15,054 nucleotides of DNA from a virus (IMGVR_UViG_2657244961_000003:1-15054), one strand, 5' to 3'; shown: positions 2,785-8,922, counted from the stretch's first letter. Numbers and translations are program-made. Notes: a model not told the origin generated them from the sequence alone.

Positions 2785-4214
2785 TCCTCCTCATACGAAA
2801 TATTAAAGGTGGAGTTTTCTGTATCCAGATAAACGAAATCGTAAAAGCCGTTGGACTCATTCCACTCGACAAATTCCAGATAAAAGTCGCGGAAATAACC
2901 CAGCGTTTCGATAAACGCCCAAACGTCTTTTTTCTTAATCAGGATGTACTTTCCGACGCGGTTCGGATCAAAGAAAGTTGAATCGCGCCCAAATTTTGTT
3001 TCCAGTGCCGACTTCAGCTCATCGGTCACATTCTCAATGGTCAGGCTTGCCGATATCCGTCCGGTGATGGTTATCTTAAATGGTAGTTTTCTGACCTCTT
3101 TATACGAGAATTTCTTGTTCAACTCATTCGGCACCTTCTTAAAGGCGGTCAGGATCATTTCTTCAAGCTCTGACTGACTTTTATTCGGATGCCATCCTGA
3201 AATAAATATCTTATTGATATTCTGAACATTATAAGCACCATCTAATTTCTCTTGCTGGCCTTCGCCCCATGCCTTTACCCAGGACAGCCCCGGGATGTTA
3301 CGAACCAGAAAATACGTATAGTCCCCGCCCCATACGACCTGATCATCATAGGCAAGGTAATATTGTGCACGGTTACGTGTGATCTCCGTTGTTTCAGCAT
3401 CGGTACCTGCGGTTATAGGTGTCGTTGTCTTAACTGAAATCAAATTAGCTAAATCAGCCGCAGAATCGACAGGCGTCAGGTTTTGGCCAGCAACCAGGGT
3501 TATATCGCCGTTGGTGCACCATACCTTAAGCGTAATTGTCGAACCTTCTGGCGGTATTTGCCCAATTAGCCCATCGCCGAATCGAACCCCCAACTGCTCG
3601 GATGGTTTATAAAACTCAACGTAGACCTGGCTTTTACTACCGGCTAACCGGAACATAGTGCTGGAAGACCACTGCGTGGTCTTCCCATCGGTCGTCACGA
3701 ATACTTCCAGCTTATAGCAGACAGCAGTAAGAGCCTTTGATAACACGACTTCCAGAAATTCTTTGGCTGCCGTAACGGTATATGTCACCTCCTGGATTTC
3801 CAACTGTGCCACTTCTACCGTACCGGTGCCGTCAACCAACCTGCATACATCCATAGTCATGTAAGGGTACTGGTCGTCAGATATTAAAGGCATGTTTTTG
3901 GGGATTACCGCTGGGGCATCTTCACTTGTGGCGGTGATCTCAATCATCCCCGATGACGGTGTTGGCTTGGTACCAACATAACTGTTCGTTTCTGCCGCAG
4001 CCAGGATAGAGGAACGCCGCGTCGCGGTCGATATAAAGCCTTCAGCCAGCGCCGCATCGGCATACTGAAAGCACCTGTAGACAATCTGGGTAATAAACAA
4101 TGTCAGCATCGAGACAAATTGAGAGCCGACAAACTTCGACCAGAATGAATCTTTCTCGACAAGCTCTTCAAACTCTGCACGAATACTGTCTTTAGTCGGT
4201 GTTGTTTTACTCAT
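2781..4214 (-). CDS. Putative baseplate protein, tentatively baseplate-J-like (477 aa)
   Basis: ORF track; ATGA overlaps at both ends (4211-4214 and 2781-2784). N-terminal segment RRSSILAAAETNSYVGTKPTPSSGMIEITAT resembles, from memory, the conserved N-terminal region of baseplate J / gp6-type proteins. Not verified by search. Confidence 0.55.
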   Translation of the reverse strand: MSKTTPTKDSIRAEFEELVEKDSFWSKFVGSQFVSMLTLFITQIVYRCFQYADAALAEGFISTATRRSSILAAAETNSYVGTKPTPSSGMIEITATSEDAPAVIPKNMPLISDDQYPYMTMDVCRLVDGTGTVEVAQLEIQEVTYTVTAAKEFLEVVLSKALTAVCYKLEVFVTTDGKTTQWSSSTMFRLAGSKSQVYVEFYKPSEQLGVRFGDGLIGQIPPEGSTITLKVWCTNGDITLVAGQNLTPVDSAADLANLISVKTTTPITAGTDAETTEITRNRAQYYLAYDDQVVWGGDYTYFLVRNIPGLSWVKAWGEGQQEKLDGAYNVQNINKIFISGWHPNKSQSELEEMILTAFKKVPNELNKKFSYKEVRKLPFKITITGRISASLTIENVTDELKSALETKFGRDSTFFDPNRVGKYILIKKKDVWAFIETLGYFRDFYLEFVEWNESNGFYDFVYLDTENSTFNISYEEE

Positions 4215-4570
4215 AGCACCACGTCCTGTGTGATAGTTATATCCCTGATACGAATGGATATTTTCAACTTATCAAAAGCATCTCCCTCGGCTACTGACAA
4301 GCCAGAAATCGGTATGTCAGGTAAATCTACCGTCAGTTTTTGCAACAGCATTGCCTCAACCGCAATTTGAACATGCGACAAGTTGGTCGGTTCGTGTTTA
4401 AACTGCGGTAAAACATTGCCCCATGACGGATCCCCGTATACCTCACCCTGATAAGTGTTTAGCCACTCATATAAACGAGCGCCCCAGGCCTCCTCCTGGG
4501 ACTCATACGTTTTTACGCCGGATAACTCCAGCGTCAGTAAAGGATCAATTTCGTTATTGTTGGCCATCAA
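4211..4570 (-). CDS. Putative small baseplate protein, tentatively GpW/gp25-like (119 aa)
   Basis: ORF track; ATGA overlap with the tape measure stop (4567-4570); size and residue pattern (GEVYGDPSWGNVLPQF...EP...IAVEAMLLQKL) loosely resemble GpW/gp25-family proteins. Tentative. Confidence 0.45.
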   Translation of the reverse strand: MMANNNEIDPLLTLELSGVKTYESQEEAWGARLYEWLNTYQGEVYGDPSWGNVLPQFKHEPTNLSHVQIAVEAMLLQKLTVDLPDIPISGLSVAEGDAFDKLKISIRIRDITITQDVVL

Positions 4571-7500
4571 TCAACTCTCGCGTAGTCATTCATCAACGGA
4601 TCATCAATTGACAGTGGCACCGTGCGCATAACGCCCGGTTGAGGCGTGCTGACCTTTACGACAGTTCCCTGGCCTTTCGCCGAGTCTTTAGTGTGCTCTT
4701 CAATCCTGGCAAGCAATGAGGTCATCTGCGCAAACAGCCGCTTCGTTTCACCATCAAGTGAAACGGTATTATCAGCCAACTGCATTGTCGGCTTGGCACC
4801 GGAGCCGCCAAGGTCACTAATAACCTGTCCGTCTATCTGCATACGACCGGTTGGTTGCTGCAAATCGTTGGCGACAGTCGTCACCTGGGGCGTGGAGGCT
4901 GGTTGAGGAGAATTATTTGAGCGCATTCCCCGGGCATTAATGAGTTTGTCATACAGTCCATCAATCCCCATTTGTGCACCGAGTTGGTCAAAGTAACTTG
5001 AGTTGTTTGCTACCGGACGTGCCTCTTCAGCTGGCATAGGTGTATCAACATACACATTGCCAGCTGCCGTTACTGTCCCCTTTCCTCGTGCGCGTTCTTC
5101 GAGGGTTCCCTGGACGACTTCTCGACGCATCCCCCGGCCATTCATGAATTTGTTGACCAGATCGTTAACACCAACAGCATTACCGATTTTGTCTACCAGA
5201 CCGCCCTTCTCAAACGGACTATCACCAGGGGTAAACGCCAGACCAGTAGACTGATCGATAACGGCGTTATCAGGCAGTGCCCCCCTTATTCCATATTGCG
5301 CTCCACCCTGTGCTCCTGCTCCAGGTGTATAGATTTCACCACCTAAATAGCGAGCACGATGAGTATTGACCTTGATCGCATACTCACGGTTTTCCTTCGA
5401 TAAGTCACCTGTGCCTTTTTTCCAGTTGTTAATAGTCCTAAAACCAGCGTTATATGCGGTGATGGCCTCGTTCCAATCTCCCTTTGCTTGTTTCAAATAC
5501 TTGCTCATGAGAAGAGCAGCAGCTTCTGCCGATTTTTCCGGATTAAACGAATCTTCCCGGGATAATCCAGTTTCCTTACGAGCAATGTCCGTAAACTGAA
5601 ACATTCCTAGCGCACCAGTTTGAGATTTTGCATACGGATTGCCATTAGATTCAGTAGCTGCAATAGAATGAAGAGTGCCTTCTGGAAGACCATATTTATT
5701 CTCTAGTTCAGCAAAATACGGAGCCAACTTATCGAGATTTGCCTTACCTTCAGCGCCAAGACTTCCGACTTTCACATCCAAGTTGCCATTGTTGTAGGTA
5801 TCCGCAGCTTTCTGAATGTCATTCCTAGTGCCAGTGGTATTAAGCGATGATGATGACGAGCTATTTTGACCAATAGCATTATCAATTTTCTGCAACGCGC
5901 TATTGCCCGTTTCTACGGCATTTGCATTGATAATCTGATTGGCAGTTTCTTTAGCTGTTTTATTGCTATCTTTCGCCGTGTCCAGTGCCGCATTTATCAC
6001 GCGGGTAGCAATATTAGTCTGTTTAGCATCGGATTCAGTTTTAGAATTAGATGTCTCCTGGTGGCTATTAACCGGAGCTTTTAACTCTGGAGTGATTTCT
6101 TTTGCATTAGCCTCGCCGATCGGATTGGGTATTTTTGATACAATCATTGCCGCAGGGGTATTTTTAACGGCATCAACCGCTGCATCTAATGCTTTACCGG
6201 GTAAATTTTTAACCCCATCCAAAATATTACCAGCCGCCTCTTTAATGTGTTTCCCTGGGTTCTTAATGAAATCAATTGCACTATCAATTGCATCACTGAA
6301 AACCTGTTTCAGGTTATCGACAGTAAAGAAGTCTTTGATGGCATCCAGCTTTTCAAGCAGCTTATTAGATGTATCGCTAAACCATGCTGAAACAGCATCA
6401 CCAATCTTTGCTGTGTAATCATCGAACTTGGTAGAAATGGTGTCGCCAAGGTTAGAAATATATATTTCTAAGTTGGTAATCCCATTATCAATGGCCTGGG
6501 CAATACTTTCCGTCGAAAATGATTGCAACATATTGCCGATATCCTCAAATCCAAGTGATTTGAGAACCTCACCAATGGCGCTGCTAATACCAGATACCAG
6601 TCCCCCCATATCAAGAACATTAGCTAACGTATAAGCGGCTTTTTGCTGGAATGATGGATCTTGTCCTGATTTAAGCCCAAACGCTCGACGTTGCGCTTCT
6701 GTATCATTCCAACCGGTTACCGCATCATAAATACCTCCAGCCACTGTGCCGACTAGGGGAATTGCGCGTAACGCCCCTTTACCAACTGCCTTTAATCCAA
6801 GTTTACTTGCTGCCCGGGCAGCCAAATCTCCGCCTTCATGGGCGAGAGTCTTCTTGCCACCACCGCGTAGCATTCCTACAAGTTTCTTTGCCCCTAGAGC
6901 GCCAAAAGCGAGTGCTCCAGCTTTTTTCAGCATGCCACGCCCCATTAACAACGACGCGACGCCACCGGCCCCCTTCCCTAACAGGCTAAATAGTTTGGAC
7001 AGCAAGCCGCCCTTCTTTTTCCCGGTGTTTTTGGCTATCTGATCAAGGGCGCTGAGAATCTTGTCATTGCCCTCTTTAATTTCGCTGGTCTGCTCCTGAA
7101 GTTCCTGAACCGTCTGTTTTTGGGTGTTAACCTGAACGACATCGGCACTATTTTGCGATTTACGCCTAAAAAAACCTTTTCTACGGCTGTTATCGTCATT
7201 GCCACGAATCACATCGGCAATAGACTTTCTGGCACCATTAAGCGATCCACCAACTTCTTTTGATATCCCGCCAAGCTCCTTCCCTGCAGCCCACAATGGG
7301 CCAGCCACGGCATAACCTAACGCATCGACGGCACGAGTCTCTGAAGGGTTTCCTATGCCTTCAGCTACTTTTGACAGTTTTTTTAATAAACCTGATTCAG
7401 CATTTAGACGCTCATCATCCTCTTTGCGCCTGGCCTTTTCAGCACGTTCAGCACGGACATCTTCCGCTGCGGCCTTACTCCCTGACTTTCCAATAAAACG

Positions 7501-7959
7501 ACCACGCGCATCGCGTTGGTTTTGGCTTTTTTGTGCACCGCCTTTTTGACCGAACATTTCGCGAGCGTGTTCGGCAGCTTCGGTCCGTTGCGCCTTTACA
7601 TCTTCTGTTATAGCCTTCTTGCGTCGTTTTTTACCCTTTCGCGTAGTTGATTTGGCCTGCTGTTCCTGTTGAGCAACATCCTCCTGAACTACACGAGAAA
7701 CGTCCCCTAAATTAAGCCGTTTCATTGCGTCAACAATAGGGGCTACTGATGGCGCTTTAGCCACAAAGTCAGGCCGGGAATTTTCGATTGTGCGATTTAA
7801 TGCCGACACACTGCGAGAGACAGGACCAACAGTTGCAACGCGTCCCCCTTTCAAATCTTCAACAGCTTCCCGGATACCTGCAAGCTCTTCCAGCTCTTTT
7901 GCGCTGGCGGTTTCAACTGTCCTTATAACATCGTCAATGTTGGCGTTTTTTCTTTCCAT
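4567..7959 (-). CDS. Phage tail tape measure protein (1130 aa) with embedded soluble lytic transglycosylase (SLT) domain
   Basis: Largest ORF in the operon. Charged, coiled-coil-like N-terminal third; Gly/Ala-rich hydrophobic segments (GGLLSKLFSLLGKGAGGVASLLMGRGMLKKAGALAFGALGAKK...). Canonical SLT family motifs ...IAATESNGNPYAKSQTGALGMFQF...AITAYNAG... at about residues 760-880 (roughly nt 5320-5720). Confidence 0.85.
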   Translation of the reverse strand: MERKNANIDDVIRTVETASAKELEELAGIREAVEDLKGGRVATVGPVSRSVSALNRTIENSRPDFVAKAPSVAPIVDAMKRLNLGDVSRVVQEDVAQQEQQAKSTTRKGKKRRKKAITEDVKAQRTEAAEHAREMFGQKGGAQKSQNQRDARGRFIGKSGSKAAAEDVRAERAEKARRKEDDERLNAESGLLKKLSKVAEGIGNPSETRAVDALGYAVAGPLWAAGKELGGISKEVGGSLNGARKSIADVIRGNDDNSRRKGFFRRKSQNSADVVQVNTQKQTVQELQEQTSEIKEGNDKILSALDQIAKNTGKKKGGLLSKLFSLLGKGAGGVASLLMGRGMLKKAGALAFGALGAKKLVGMLRGGGKKTLAHEGGDLAARAASKLGLKAVGKGALRAIPLVGTVAGGIYDAVTGWNDTEAQRRAFGLKSGQDPSFQQKAAYTLANVLDMGGLVSGISSAIGEVLKSLGFEDIGNMLQSFSTESIAQAIDNGITNLEIYISNLGDTISTKFDDYTAKIGDAVSAWFSDTSNKLLEKLDAIKDFFTVDNLKQVFSDAIDSAIDFIKNPGKHIKEAAGNILDGVKNLPGKALDAAVDAVKNTPAAMIVSKIPNPIGEANAKEITPELKAPVNSHQETSNSKTESDAKQTNIATRVINAALDTAKDSNKTAKETANQIINANAVETGNSALQKIDNAIGQNSSSSSSLNTTGTRNDIQKAADTYNNGNLDVKVGSLGAEGKANLDKLAPYFAELENKYGLPEGTLHSIAATESNGNPYAKSQTGALGMFQFTDIARKETGLSREDSFNPEKSAEAAALLMSKYLKQAKGDWNEAITAYNAGFRTINNWKKGTGDLSKENREYAIKVNTHRARYLGGEIYTPGAGAQGGAQYGIRGALPDNAVIDQSTGLAFTPGDSPFEKGGLVDKIGNAVGVNDLVNKFMNGRGMRREVVQGTLEERARGKGTVTAAGNVYVDTPMPAEEARPVANNSSYFDQLGAQMGIDGLYDKLINARGMRSNNSPQPASTPQVTTVANDLQQPTGRMQIDGQVISDLGGSGAKPTMQLADNTVSLDGETKRLFAQMTSLLARIEEHTKDSAKGQGTVVKVSTPQPGVMRTVPLSIDDPLMNDYARVD

Positions 7960-8040
7960 GATCTTATCGCCTACCGTTTCGGTTTAAGTTTTTCTTCCAG
8001 CTTCTCCAACAGGAAAAACGCATAGGATTCAGTGAGCCTT

Positions 8041-8922
8041 TCAGCGTCCTGAATCGGTATACCCCCATACAAAACCAGGTTGGACACTAAGGTCTGATAG
8101 CTTTTCAATCCCCACCTGTGGAATGAAGTCGGTAGCCCGAAAGGGCACCCACAGACGGGTATACGCACCCTCTGTGGACTCCTTTTTATCCTGGTTTGGG
8201 CATTTATGCGGCGGGAGACGAAGACGCATTTCACCTTTATCGATGTAGCACGGTAAACCATGTTCGAGCTTTTCATGAGCCAGTCGGATGTGTGCCGCCA
8301 GCTTCATAAATTCAGTATCAATGGCCATCCGTTTAATCGTTTCATAACGACGCTCAGCCTGATCTTCACGAGTACCGCTAACATCGTTATAAAGCTCACA
8401 CTGATAAGCGAATTCCCAAAAACGCAAATCAACGATCGCTTCTTTGAATTCCGCGTCGTCTTCAGGTGGCAATGCTGCACGGCGCATCTCCAGCATTTCC
8501 ATTGCCCAACCATCAAGCGGCACGATACGCCATTGATAGGGTACGCCCTCTACAGACACCTCAATATCGTCAATGAACGGTTCCGCTTCCAAGACCTGGA
8601 TATCTTCAGCCAGAGCATTCATATCGCAATCGTAATAATGCTCTTTACCGCAATGTTTACAGGTGTAGGTGAATGTCTCGACCGGTGTTTCACGGGAGCC
8701 GGTAAATATCCACCATAACGAGGTAATTCGGTCCTGCGCCGTCCATGTCAGGGGATCATGTTTCGCGGGTTCAGCCAGCAAGGCTTTTAAATACGCCGTT
8801 GTCTGTTGTTCTTGTTCCTCCGGTGTTATCGAGTTGAAACGCATCGCATCAGCAATATTTGGCTGACGGAACTGGATCAATTCAGTTGGCCGCGATGGTA
8901 GCGGGAAAAGAGGTAAAAGCAT
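8041..8922 (-). CDS. Putative tail assembly chaperone (293 aa), assigned by position between a major-tail-sized gene and the tape measure gene; contains a Cys cluster (CKHCGKEHYYDCD)
   Basis: ORF track; synteny. A +1-frame ORF (7971-8276) overlaps its 3' end and stops 12 nt before the tape measure start, consistent with a G/GT-like frameshift product. Product call is positional only. Confidence 0.5.
   Translation of the reverse strand: MLLPLFPLPSRPTELIQFRQPNIADAMRFNSITPEEQEQQTTAYLKALLAEPAKHDPLTWTAQDRITSLWWIFTGSRETPVETFTYTCKHCGKEHYYDCDMNALAEDIQVLEAEPFIDDIEVSVEGVPYQWRIVPLDGWAMEMLEMRRAALPPEDDAEFKEAIVDLRFWEFAYQCELYNDVSGTREDQAERRYETIKRMAIDTEFMKLAAHIRLAHEKLEHGLPCYIDKGEMRLRLPPHKCPNQDKKESTEGAYTRLWVPFRATDFIPQVGIEKLSDLSVQPGFVWGYTDSGR

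What the first reader, a model, noticed from the sequence alone, without database searches (positions are those of the whole stretch)
7971..8276. Possible programmed frameshift extension of the tail chaperone-position gene (G/GT-like), but in the +1 frame
An open +1-frame window (7971-8276) overlaps the last 236 nt of the 293-aa gene and stops 12 nt before the tape measure start codon. This is the classic position for a tail assembly chaperone frameshift product. The needed shift is +1 or -2 rather than the common -1, and the extension would be short: 23 aa if the shift is at the TGA stop (reading ...GR then ERLTESYAFFLLEKLEEKLKPKR).
Basis: inference. Interest (0 to 1): 0.45.

Follow-up and report, generated by a model that had tools for sequence, protein, structure and literature searches.

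The report
P1 tail-chaperone gene hides +1 frameshift
In phage P1 and its relatives, the essential tail-assembly gene pmgB, which sits just before the tape-measure gene, carries a conserved UUU-C slip site where some ribosomes most likely shift +1 and make a second protein with a different 55-residue tail; this would be P1's unannotated counterpart of lambda's G/GT chaperone pair.

Summary
The window is a P1-like phage-plasmid. The finding lies at the 3' end of pmgB (8041-8922, minus strand), between the tail tube gene tub and the tape-measure gene sit. The +1-frame ORF is real. In this window alone it is barely more than chance (P about 0.006).

Comparison with about 100 related loci (31-99% protein identity; Escherichia, Salmonella, Cronobacter, Pantoea, Xenorhabdus, Serratia, Aeromonas, Vibrio, metagenomes) makes it convincing:
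- The +1 frame is always open for 52-66 codons and usually ends just before sit.
- Its peptide aligns without gaps and is under purifying selection (pN/pS 0.25, against more than 1 in the other frames).
- The wobble phase switches exactly at codon 261.
- Codon 261 is TTT in every locus and is followed by C (once by T), the known bacterial +1-prone UUU_Y site.
- No start codon is conserved in the +1 frame.
- No in-frame fusion turned up in 1.84 billion representatives of 15 billion proteins.

The shift is therefore at UUU_CGG (8142-8137), not at the TGA stop. The products would be PmgB (293 aa) and a 316-aa trans-frame form.

PmgB's predicted fold resembles the T4 gp51/gp26 hub-assembly chaperones. 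No product has been shown experimentally. I rate it a new member of a known kind.

The parts
8041..8922 (-). pmgB 0-frame CDS (293 aa, 34.1 kDa). It is the essential, non-virion tail-assembly protein at the chaperone position between tub and sit.
   Evidence: ORF list. PHROG 1854 'PmgB-like', E = 3e-153. 98% nt identity to P1 pmgB. Function from PMC9024508. AF2 model pLDDT 85 with residues 270-293 disordered.
8137..8142 (-). Proposed +1 slip site UUU_CGG (codons F261-R262). tRNA-Phe would re-pair from UUU (8142-8140) to UUC (8141-8139), and the next codon read would be GGG (8138-8136).
   Evidence: TTT is present in every locus analysed. It is followed by C in all but one, which has T. Other invariant Phe and Arg columns use mixed codons. 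The wobble phase switches exactly here. UUU_Ynn is a known +1-prone site in bacteria (PMC5009743).
7971..8138 (-). +1-frame extension: 55 codons (GLPTSFHRWGLKSYQTLVSNLVLYGGIPIQDAERLTESYAFFLLEKLEEKLKPKR) plus the TAG stop at 7973-7971. The predicted trans-frame product joins 8922..8140 to 8138..7974, giving 316 aa and 37.0 kDa.
   Evidence: Translation. Gap-free alignment across the family. pN/pS 0.25 in this frame against 1.12 and 1.52 in the other two. Identical in 81 of 84 close P1-like loci. AF2 of the tail alone gives three helices, pLDDT 78. Sizes.
8041..8136 (-). 0-frame tail of PmgB after F261-R262 (31 aa plus TGA), overlapped by the +1 extension. Beyond a short F..P motif (F266, P268) it is not conserved.
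   Evidence: The 0-frame tail length varies from 8 to 35 codons across the family, with no conservation beyond FRxxxFxP. 0-frame pN/pS is about 1. Disordered in the AF2 model. Nucleotides at rel +15 and +21 are conserved beyond what the +1 frame needs.
7971..8303 (-). Full stop-to-stop open stretch of the +1 frame (110 codons). The part upstream of 8142 is not conserved as +1-frame coding sequence.
   Evidence: In relatives the upstream +1 stop lies as close as 1-2 codons before the TTT (L007, L008, L014, L113).
4567..7959 (-). sit, the tape-measure protein with an SLT domain (1130 aa). It starts 11 nt after the stop of the +1 extension.
   Evidence: Pfam SLT, E = 1e-26. PHROG 2533. Tape-measure assignment in PMC9024508.
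8937..9548 (-). tub, the tail tube protein, immediately upstream of pmgB.
   Evidence: PHROG 1842 'tail tube protein', E = 3.7e-105. P1 annotation.

Best explanation
pmgB encodes two proteins that share residues 1-261.

- Most ribosomes read straight through and make PmgB (293 aa). Its last roughly 25 residues are a poorly conserved, disordered tail.
- At codon 261 a fraction of ribosomes carrying peptidyl-tRNA-Phe on UUU slip one base forward onto UUC. In P1 the A-site codon at that moment is CGG, which is read by a minor tRNA-Arg. These ribosomes then read GGG and 54 more codons in the +1 frame and stop 11 nt before the tape-measure gene sit. The result is a 316-aa protein with a conserved, basic, helical 55-residue tail.

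By analogy with lambda gpG/gpGT, the shared body would bind or chaperone the tape-measure/hub assembly. The alternative tail would add a second interaction, for example with the tube or baseplate hub. The recoding would fix the ratio of the two forms.

Shown here: the conserved overlapping coding frame, the exact position of the frame switch, the invariant UUU_Y, and the absence of a start codon or of any in-frame fusion.

Inferred: that ribosomal +1 slippage is how the frame is reached, how efficient it is, and what the tail does.
For: 1. Position and role. The gene order is tub - pmgB - sit. pmgB is essential, its deletion gives no tails, and PmgB is not found in virions (PMC9024508).

2. 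An open, conserved +1 frame.
- In 20 first-round loci with 35-75% protein identity, the +1 frame is open for 52-58 codons after codon 261.
- In 93 loci (33 distinct peptides), located independently through the +1-frame NLxLYG motif at a fixed distance from the site, it is open for 52-66 codons.
- It usually ends a few nt before sit.
- The trans-frame proteins align without gaps across the junction.

3. Selection.
- pN/pS of the extension is 0.25 (median) in the +1 frame, against 1.12 in the 0 frame and 1.52 in the +2 frame.
- dN/dS is 0.02-0.37, and the signal holds in the codons beyond every 0-frame stop.

4. Phase switch.
- Upstream of the site the most variable codon position is 0-frame position 3.
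- Downstream it is 0-frame position 1, which is the +1-frame wobble, in 39 of 50 codons (binomial P = 1e-10).
- The switch falls at TTTC.
- Two codons after the slip, the 0-frame third base is an invariant T while the first two bases vary. This fits only +1-frame coding of Leu/Ile/Val.

5. The slip site.
- TTT in 20/20, 84/84 and 93/93 loci.
- The next base is C in all but one locus, where it is T.
- Elsewhere in these genes Phe codons split 114 TTT: 114 TTC, and invariant Arg columns use 5 different codons.
- UUU_Ynn is described as especially +1-prone in bacteria. UCC_UUU_CGU is the influenza PA-X +1 site (PMC5009743).

6. The shift window is bounded. L007 has a +1-frame stop one codon before the TTT. 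L008, L097, L107, L109 and L110 have the 0-frame stop 8 codons after the A-site codon.

7. No conserved start. The first ATG/GTG/TTG in the +1 frame lies anywhere from codon +2 to +43, almost never with a Shine-Dalgarno-like sequence upstream and never at a conserved position. In three of the four Xenorhabdus loci there is none before +43.

8. No in-frame fusion.
- The fused query was covered at most 91% by any of 25 protein clusters.
- An index search with the extension profile found only 35-99 aa fragments.
- A full HMMER scan of 1.84 billion representatives found only 35-89 aa fragments plus two spurious repeat proteins.

9. Consistent with published data. The published complementing clone ppmgB ends at the pmgB TGA, so it lacks the last 23 codons of the extension. 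It rescued only 4.7-fold (PMC9024508).
Against: - No trans-frame protein has been observed. The P1 virion proteome did not detect PmgB at all, which is expected for a chaperone but is uninformative here.
- No stimulatory element was found. The consensus RNA structure downstream is worth -0.88 kcal/mol and the window's own fold has z = 0.27. There is no conserved Shine-Dalgarno-like sequence upstream (alignment).
- The A-site codon is not always a slow one. It is CGG in most lineages but CTC, CGC, CAC or TGC in others. A 'hungry codon' therefore cannot be the universal stimulator.
- Unstimulated UUU_Y sites are generally low-efficiency.
- The weak complementation is not specific: pmgA (11-fold) and pmgC (6-fold) were also poorly complemented.
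- The function assigned to the tail rests only on analogy with lambda.
Confidence: 0.85

Rival explanations
1. The conserved +1-frame sequence is a separate small gene, translated from its own start codon or by coupling or reinitiation. Some records already annotate it that way.
For: phi456 annotates a 38-aa 'Orf23' with a GTG start, and Cronobacter phage JK004 annotates a 29-aa gene_9 with an ATG start. Public protein sets hold dozens of 35-99 aa ORF calls in this frame.
Against: - The called starts are at arbitrary, non-homologous positions.
- The JK004 ATG is ATA in the window.
- The first canonical start varies from +2 to +43, with no conserved Shine-Dalgarno sequence. Three of the four Xenorhabdus loci have none before +43, and L099 and L100 none before +32.
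- Purifying selection and the +1 wobble pattern begin at codon +1, directly after the TTT. That is upstream of any start in most loci.
- A separate gene would not explain an invariant TTT-pyrimidine at the frame junction.
Confidence: 0.06
2. The shift into the +1 frame happens elsewhere: at the TGA stop, or by -2 or +1 slippage on the U GGG GGU run at about 8064-8070.
For: In the P1 subgroup the run gta tgg ggg tat permits GGG-to-GGG (-2) or GGG-to-GGU (+1) re-pairing and is conserved in JK004. Stop codons can stimulate +1 shifts. Phage Mu uses -2 in its tail chaperone gene (PMC5009743).
Against: - In Xenorhabdus, Serratia, Citrobacter, Aeromonas, Vibrio and others, the 0-frame stop lies 8-18 codons after the slip site. 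That is upstream of the position equivalent to the G run, which is itself absent there.
- +1-frame selection already acts on the 20-30 codons before those sites.
- CGC_UGA offers no +1 re-pairing for tRNA-Arg.
Confidence: 0.04
3. The open frame is a chance by-product, or the conservation reflects a non-coding function such as an RNA element controlling sit translation, and no second protein is made.
For: In the window alone the open frame is only weakly unusual: P about 0.006, and 18% in synonymous shuffles.
Against: - The frame is open with near-constant length in every intact locus examined (the one disrupted close P1-like locus is).
- A codon-phase substitution pattern and pN/pS of 0.25 point to coding sequence, not RNA structure.
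- No conserved RNA structure was found.
- The extension is retained intact in L101, where other genes separate pmgB from sit.
Confidence: 0.02

Closest known systems
Lambda gpG/gpGT tail assembly chaperones and the conserved tail-gene frameshift (Levin 1993; Xu, Hendrix and Duda 2004, as summarised in PMC5009743)
   Same: The gene sits between the tail tube gene and the tape-measure gene. There are two products with a common N-terminal body and different C-termini. The second ORF has no start of its own and ends at the tape-measure gene. The protein is needed for tail assembly but absent from virions. The arrangement is never replaced by a fusion.
   Different: The direction is +1, not -1, and there is no X_XXY_YYZ heptamer. 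The shared body is about 260 aa with a Cys/His cluster and a T4 gp51/gp26-like fold, rather than a G protein of about 130 aa. The alternative tail is only 55 aa. No experimental product or ratio is known.
+1 and -2 variants of the tail-chaperone frameshift (Mu -2; haloarchaeal HSTV-2 +1; about 350 '+1' annotations among SEA-PHAGES actinophages, PMC10274946)
   Same: These also reach the +1 frame in the tail chaperone gene, so the class of event is already established.
   Different: They are different phage lineages with different protein families and slip sites. No such event is annotated or described for P1 or Punavirus in any record or paper I could search.
UUU_Ynn +1-prone sites: Yersinia YopN-TyeA, and influenza A PA-X (UCC_UUU_CGU)
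   Same: The slip chemistry is the same: tRNA-Phe moves from UUU to UUC, and no RNA structure is required. P1's UUU_CGG matches PA-X's UUU_CGU apart from the wobble base of the Arg codon.
   Different: The biological context differs. In the PmgB family the A-site codon varies (CGG, CTC, CGC, CAC, TGC) while UUU_Y is invariant. The E-site codon is not conserved.
T4 gp51 and gp26 hub-assembly chaperones (Pfam PF12322 T4_baseplate)
   Same: - The PmgB model matches BFVD 'baseplate hub subunit / T4-like baseplate hub assembly protein' models over its full length (E = 2e-9, TM 0.62/0.72).
- 13 of 16 family members give in-register sub-threshold PF12322 hits.
- The match to gp51 is collinear and includes the CxxC motif.
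- These are non-structural assembly factors (PMC3004832).
- pmgB and the gp25-like pmgA flank sit, while in T4 genes 26 and 25 are adjacent.
   Different: PmgB is below the Pfam gathering score. T4 makes a second gene-26 product by internal initiation (26'), not by frameshifting, and T4 genes 26 and 51 are not directly upstream of the tape-measure gene 29. Whether gp51/gp26 act on the tape measure is unknown.

Membership tests
G/GT-type tail assembly chaperone with programmed frameshift | The gene lies immediately upstream of the tape-measure gene and downstream of the major tail/tube gene. | tested here: met
   tub (8937-9548), pmgB (8041-8922), sit (4567-7959), all on the minus strand. The order is the same in relatives.
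G/GT-type tail assembly chaperone with programmed frameshift | An overlapping second ORF, conserved as coding sequence, has no start of its own and ends at or near the tape-measure gene. | tested here: met
   52-66 codons open in all intact loci examined, pN/pS 0.25, no conserved start.
G/GT-type tail assembly chaperone with programmed frameshift | A conserved slippery sequence sits at the frame junction (classically a -1 heptamer). | tested here: inconclusive
   A conserved slip motif is present (UUU_Y in every locus). It is a +1 motif, not the canonical -1 X_XXY_YYZ heptamer. +1 and -2 variants are accepted members of the class (PMC5009743).
G/GT-type tail assembly chaperone with programmed frameshift | Two protein products are detected in a fixed ratio. 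| not testable with these tools
   No proteomic or reporter data exist. The virion proteome lacks PmgB altogether.
G/GT-type tail assembly chaperone with programmed frameshift | The protein is required for tail assembly but absent from the virion. | not testable with these tools
   Taken from the literature only: the pmgB deletion gives no tails, and PmgB was not detected by LC-MS/MS of virions (PMC9024508).
G/GT-type tail assembly chaperone with programmed frameshift | Structural relationship to solved tail assembly chaperones. | tested here: inconclusive
Pfam PF12322 T4_baseplate (T4 gp26/gp51) | Score at or above the Pfam gathering threshold (24.5 bits). | tested here: not met
   The window's PmgB scores 14.4 bits (E = 0.03). 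13 of 16 relatives give sub-threshold hits, the best at E = 3.7e-4. T4 gp26 and gp51 themselves score 216 and 178 bits.
Pfam PF12322 T4_baseplate (T4 gp26/gp51) | The same overall fold. | tested here: met
   Foldseek against BFVD gave 40 hits at E <= 1e-3. The top hits are annotated baseplate hub subunit or T4-like hub assembly protein, with about 280 aligned columns and TM up to 0.62 (query) / 0.72 (target). hhalign against gp51 is collinear but weak, at 37% probability.
UUU_Ynn +1 shift-prone sites | UUU in the P site followed by a pyrimidine, allowing tRNA-Phe to re-pair at +1. | tested here: met
   TTTC in 92 and TTTT in 1 of 93 loci located independently of the motif, TTTCGG in 84/84 close loci and in 20/20 first-round loci.
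UUU_Ynn +1 shift-prone sites | A slow-to-decode 0-frame A-site codon. | tested here: inconclusive
   It is CGG in the window and in most lineages. From general knowledge of E. coli tRNA pools, CGG is read by a minor tRNA-Arg. Other lineages have CTC, CGC, CAC or TGC.

The most novel reading that the evidence does not exclude
PmgB and, by extension, the enigmatic T4 gp51/gp26 'hub assembly catalysts' are the T4/P1-lineage equivalents of G/GT tape-measure chaperones. The two-isoform logic would then hold even in myophage lineages where no tail-chaperone frameshift has been annotated. In the P1 clade the ratio would be set by an unstimulated UUU_Y +1 slip. In P1 itself its efficiency could depend on the supply of the minor tRNA-Arg(CCG), so tail-assembly stoichiometry would respond to host translation state.
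Probability: 0.25. Interest if true: 0.6.

Novelty: new member of a known kind. Interest (0 to 1): 0.5.

Why it matters
P1 is one of the most heavily used phages in genetics, and P1-like phage-plasmids sit in 471 of 5,426 complete E. coli genomes. Yet the GenBank and RefSeq records I inspected (P1 reference, an E. coli plasmid, phi456, JK004) leave this stretch as an 81-nt 'intergenic' gap or call an arbitrary mini-ORF.

If the frameshift is real:
- An essential P1 tail gene makes a second, unannotated protein.
- pmgB constructs that stop at the TGA are incomplete. This may explain the 4.7-fold complementation reported in PMC9024508.
- Annotation pipelines should join the two ORFs.
- The tail-chaperone frameshift rule would extend to the P1 lineage, with a minimal, structure-free +1 site that is easy to test.
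- It would give a functional handle on the T4 gp51/gp26-like protein family.

Tried and rejected
- **Stimulatory RNA structure.** RNAalifold on 19 junctions gave -0.88 kcal/mol with no covarying helix. The window's own fold has z = 0.27. Rejected.
- **Upstream Shine-Dalgarno-like stimulator.** A GGGUG lies 3 nt before the TTT in the P1 subgroup only and is not conserved elsewhere (alignment). Rejected as a general feature.
- **Natural in-frame fusions.** I searched with the fused product, with the extension profile through the word index, and with a full HMMER scan of 1.84 billion representatives. None was found. Two long hits are translated repeats.
- **L108.** This locus looked like an in-frame fusion. 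However, it carries compensating 1-nt indels in homopolymer runs in an NCTC assembly with several broken genes. I read these as probable sequencing errors or a decayed element and discarded it.
- **AF2 of the chimeric 316-aa product.** I modelled the body and the tail separately instead.
- **Direct profile match to T4 gp26.** It matched only the CxxC motif, at 22% probability. gp51 was collinear but weak, at 37%.
- **Pfam at default thresholds and PDB sequence search for PmgB.** Nothing significant.
- **Literature not held.** The P1 genome paper (Lobocka 2004) is not held, and I did not have the text of Xu et al. 2004 either. I therefore cannot exclude that a P1 frameshift was mentioned in one of them.
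- **CGG as a universal 'hungry codon'.** Rejected after the metagenome loci showed CTC, CGC, CAC and TGC at that position.

Full report
**What the window is.** All the genes around the finding lie on the minus strand and match phage P1 tail genes. The order is R, 16, bplA, pmgA, sit (1130 aa, SLT domain), pmgB (293 aa), tub and pmgC. The 1.1-kb stretch around the finding is 97-99% identical to P1, P7, SJ46 and other Punavirus records, and 72.7% identical to Cronobacter phage JK004. It also occurs on plasmids of 471 of 5,426 complete E. coli genomes. The '293-aa gene' is therefore pmgB, and the 'tape measure' is sit.

**Checking the observation.**
- The ORF at 7971-8276 (minus strand) exists. 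Stop to stop, the frame is open from 7971 to 8303, which is 110 codons.
- It is in the +1 frame of pmgB and overlaps its last 236 nt.
- Taken alone this is weak evidence. With the 4.55% +1-frame stop frequency of the neighbouring genes, 110 open codons has P about 0.006. In synonymous shuffles of pmgB, the overlapping part stays open 18% of the time.

**What is known about pmgB.** Gonzales et al. 2022 (PMC9024508) showed that pmgB is essential, that its deletion gives heads but no tails, and that PmgB is absent from the virion proteome. From its position they suggested it is a tape-measure chaperone. They found no homology by HHpred and did not mention a frameshift.
- None of the six papers that mention pmgB describes one.
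- The P1 reference record, the RefSeq/PGAP record of an E. coli plasmid, and other phage records annotate either nothing or an arbitrary mini-ORF in the 81-nt gap.

**Comparative evidence.** I collected pmgB-sit junctions from several sources:
- annotated phages (L001, L002);
- GTDB genomes (L003-L016);
- IMG/VR (L017-L096);
- contigs encoding diverged homologues (L097-L110);
- metagenomes (L113-L192).

The hosts include Escherichia, Salmonella, Cronobacter, Pantoea, Chimaeribacter, Citrobacter, Buttiauxella, Xenorhabdus, Serratia, Aeromonas and Vibrio. PmgB identity goes down to about 31-36%.

In every intact locus the +1 frame is open from the same point for 52-66 codons. It usually ends a few nucleotides before sit. 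The 0-frame stop, by contrast, wanders between 8 and 35 codons after that point.

The +1 peptide is conserved: FG(L/I/V)xTSFxxxxLxGWxxLxxNLxLYGxQPxxDxxxLxEWxAxxxNxxLxEKxK. Proteins built by joining the 0 frame up to F261 with the +1 frame align without a single gap across the junction.

**Where the frame changes.**
- Upstream of codon 261 the most variable codon position is the 0-frame third base. Downstream it is the 0-frame first base, which is the +1-frame wobble, in 39 of 50 codons (P = 1e-10). The switch falls exactly on TTTC.
- Two codons after the site, the 0-frame residue is A/P/S/N/G/V while its third base is an invariant T. This makes sense only if that T is the middle base of a +1-frame Leu/Ile/Val codon.
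- pN/pS of the extension is 0.25 (median) in the +1 frame, against 1.12 and 1.52 in the other two frames. The signal holds in the part beyond every 0-frame stop.
- L007 has a +1-frame stop one codon before the site. Five loci have the 0-frame stop ten codons after the TTT. This brackets the shift to about 11 codons.

**The slip site.** Codon 261 is TTT in 20/20 diverse loci, in 84/84 close P1-like loci, and in 93/93 loci located independently through the +1-frame NLxLYG motif at a fixed distance.
- The next base is C in all but one locus, where it is T.
- Elsewhere in these genes Phe codons are 114 TTT: 114 TTC, and other invariant Phe and Arg columns use mixed codons.
- The 0-frame A-site codon is CGG in the window and in most lineages, but CTC, CGC, CAC or TGC in others. 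The invariant core is therefore UUU_Y.
[quoted passage not shown] It is the presumed YopN-TyeA site, and UCC_UUU_CGU is the influenza PA-X +1 site.
- In window coordinates: TTT is 8142-8140 and CGG is 8139-8137. The +1 reading resumes at GGG (8138-8136) and ends at TAG (7973-7971).
- In the P1 reference the site is at 44593-44588 on the complement strand.
- The predicted products are PmgB (293 aa, 34.1 kDa) and a 316-aa, 37.0-kDa trans-frame form.

**Rivals.**
- *A separately initiated small gene* is what some annotators and gene callers chose. Their starts are not homologous, though. The first canonical start lies anywhere from +2 to +43, almost never with a Shine-Dalgarno-like sequence and never at a conserved position, and most Xenorhabdus loci have none before +43. 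Selection begins upstream of all of them.
Most relatives terminate the 0 frame upstream of the equivalent positions.
- *A non-coding explanation* is contradicted by the codon-phase signal and by the lack of any conserved RNA structure.
- *In-frame fusions:* no search found one, including a full HMMER scan of 1.84 billion representatives of 15 billion proteins. As with lambda G/GT, this suggests that the out-of-frame arrangement, and hence a ratio of two products, is itself selected.

**What kind of protein PmgB is.**
- AF2 gives a confident model (pLDDT 85, pTM 0.82) for residues 1 to about 262. The 0-frame tail is disordered.
- Foldseek against viral models finds full-length matches to proteins annotated 'baseplate hub subunit' or 'T4-like baseplate hub assembly protein' (E = 2e-9; TM 0.62/0.72).
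- 13 of 16 family members give in-register but sub-threshold hits to Pfam PF12322. That family contains both T4 gp26 and T4 gp51.
- A collinear but weak profile match to gp51 includes the CxxC motif. gp26 and gp51 are listed as hub assembly chaperones (PMC3004832).
- Modelled alone, the 55-aa tail forms three helices (pLDDT 78). It is basic (pI 9.2), whereas the 0-frame tail is acidic.

**A link to published experiments.** The supplementary primer table of PMC9024508 shows two things.
- The pmgB deletion removes the slip site and most of the extension.
- The complementing clone ends exactly at the pmgB TGA; the reverse primer is ...tcagcgtcctgaatcgg.

Any frameshift product from that clone lacks the conserved last 23 residues. 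Complementation was 4.7-fold, the weakest of the five genes tested. This fits the model but is not diagnostic, because pmgA and pmgC were also poorly complemented.

**Comparison with what is known, and verdict.** Tail-chaperone frameshifts in the -1, -2 and +1 directions are established. The UUU_Y chemistry is also established. This is therefore a new member of a known kind rather than a new mechanism.

What appears to be new:
- the event in P1/Punavirus and its wide family of phage-plasmids;
- the exact site;
- the link to the T4 gp51/gp26-like fold.

I put 0.85 on a genuine programmed +1 frameshift at UUU_CGG. Its efficiency, its stimulators and the role of the tail remain inferred, and a product still has to be shown.

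Noticed in passing
window 10333-11100: A complete IS1 (768 bp, terminal repeats at both ends) carrying insA and insB with the A6C motif at 10639, where IS1's known -1 frameshift occurs. It sits between pmgC and the kilA-like gene. In P1 that position, by my recollection of the P1 gene map, holds simABC, c4, icd and ant. Rfam finds no c4 RNA anywhere in the window.
   Followed up: partly
window 13554-14722 (+): Two overlapping genes lie downstream of a 281-aa ORF (12540-13385) that I take, by position and recollection of the P1 map, to be repL. One is a DUF3800 protein (234 aa) and the other a 159-aa partner. They match the PADLOC candidate defence system PDC-M04 (A: E = 2e-95; B: E = 1e-51). 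This looks like an accessory defence cargo on this P1-like element.
   Followed up: partly
window 8041-8922 (PmgB residues C88, C91, H95, H221, C241): Cys and His residues that are invariant across the family suggest a metal (zinc) site. The CxxC..H part aligns with the CxxC of T4 gp51.
   Followed up: partly
PMC9024508 supplementary Table S2, corresponding to window 8041-8057: The published pmgB complementation clone ends at the pmgB TGA, so it truncates the +1 extension by 23 codons. Rescue was only 4.7-fold.
   Followed up: yes
L114-L135, L109, L122, L136, L140, L148, L188 (metagenome loci): These sub-clades of the family keep UUU_Y but have a different A-site codon: CTC in a gut-metagenome clade of about 20 loci, plus CGC, CAC and TGC. 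The residue after Phe in the trans-frame protein is then Ser, Ala or Thr instead of Gly.
   Followed up: yes
L108 (E. coli NCTC assembly UGEA01000008.1), locus 2002-2716: The pmgB homologue is split by a 1-nt insertion in an A run and a 1-nt deletion in the TTT of the slip site, and neighbouring genes also look broken. This is probably homopolymer sequencing error or a decayed element, not a natural fusion.
   Followed up: partly
L101 2548-4429: In one metagenomic relative, a ParA-like gene, a ParD-like gene and a small gene are inserted between pmgB and the sit homologue. The 56-codon +1 extension is nevertheless intact, so the extension travels with pmgB rather than with the sit start.
   Followed up: no
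L111 3803-4429 (T4 gene 26) and window 4211-8922: T4 gene 26 (PF12322) is directly followed by gene 25. In P1 the PF12322-like pmgB and the gp25-like pmgA flank sit. T4 makes a second gene-26 product (26') by internal initiation. I did not test whether other PF12322 genes carry conserved overlapping frames.
   Followed up: no
window 11164-11691 (+): A 175-aa Cys-rich ORF lies between IS1 and the KilA-N/ANT gene. It has no Pfam or PADLOC match, and it may not be a real gene.
   Followed up: no
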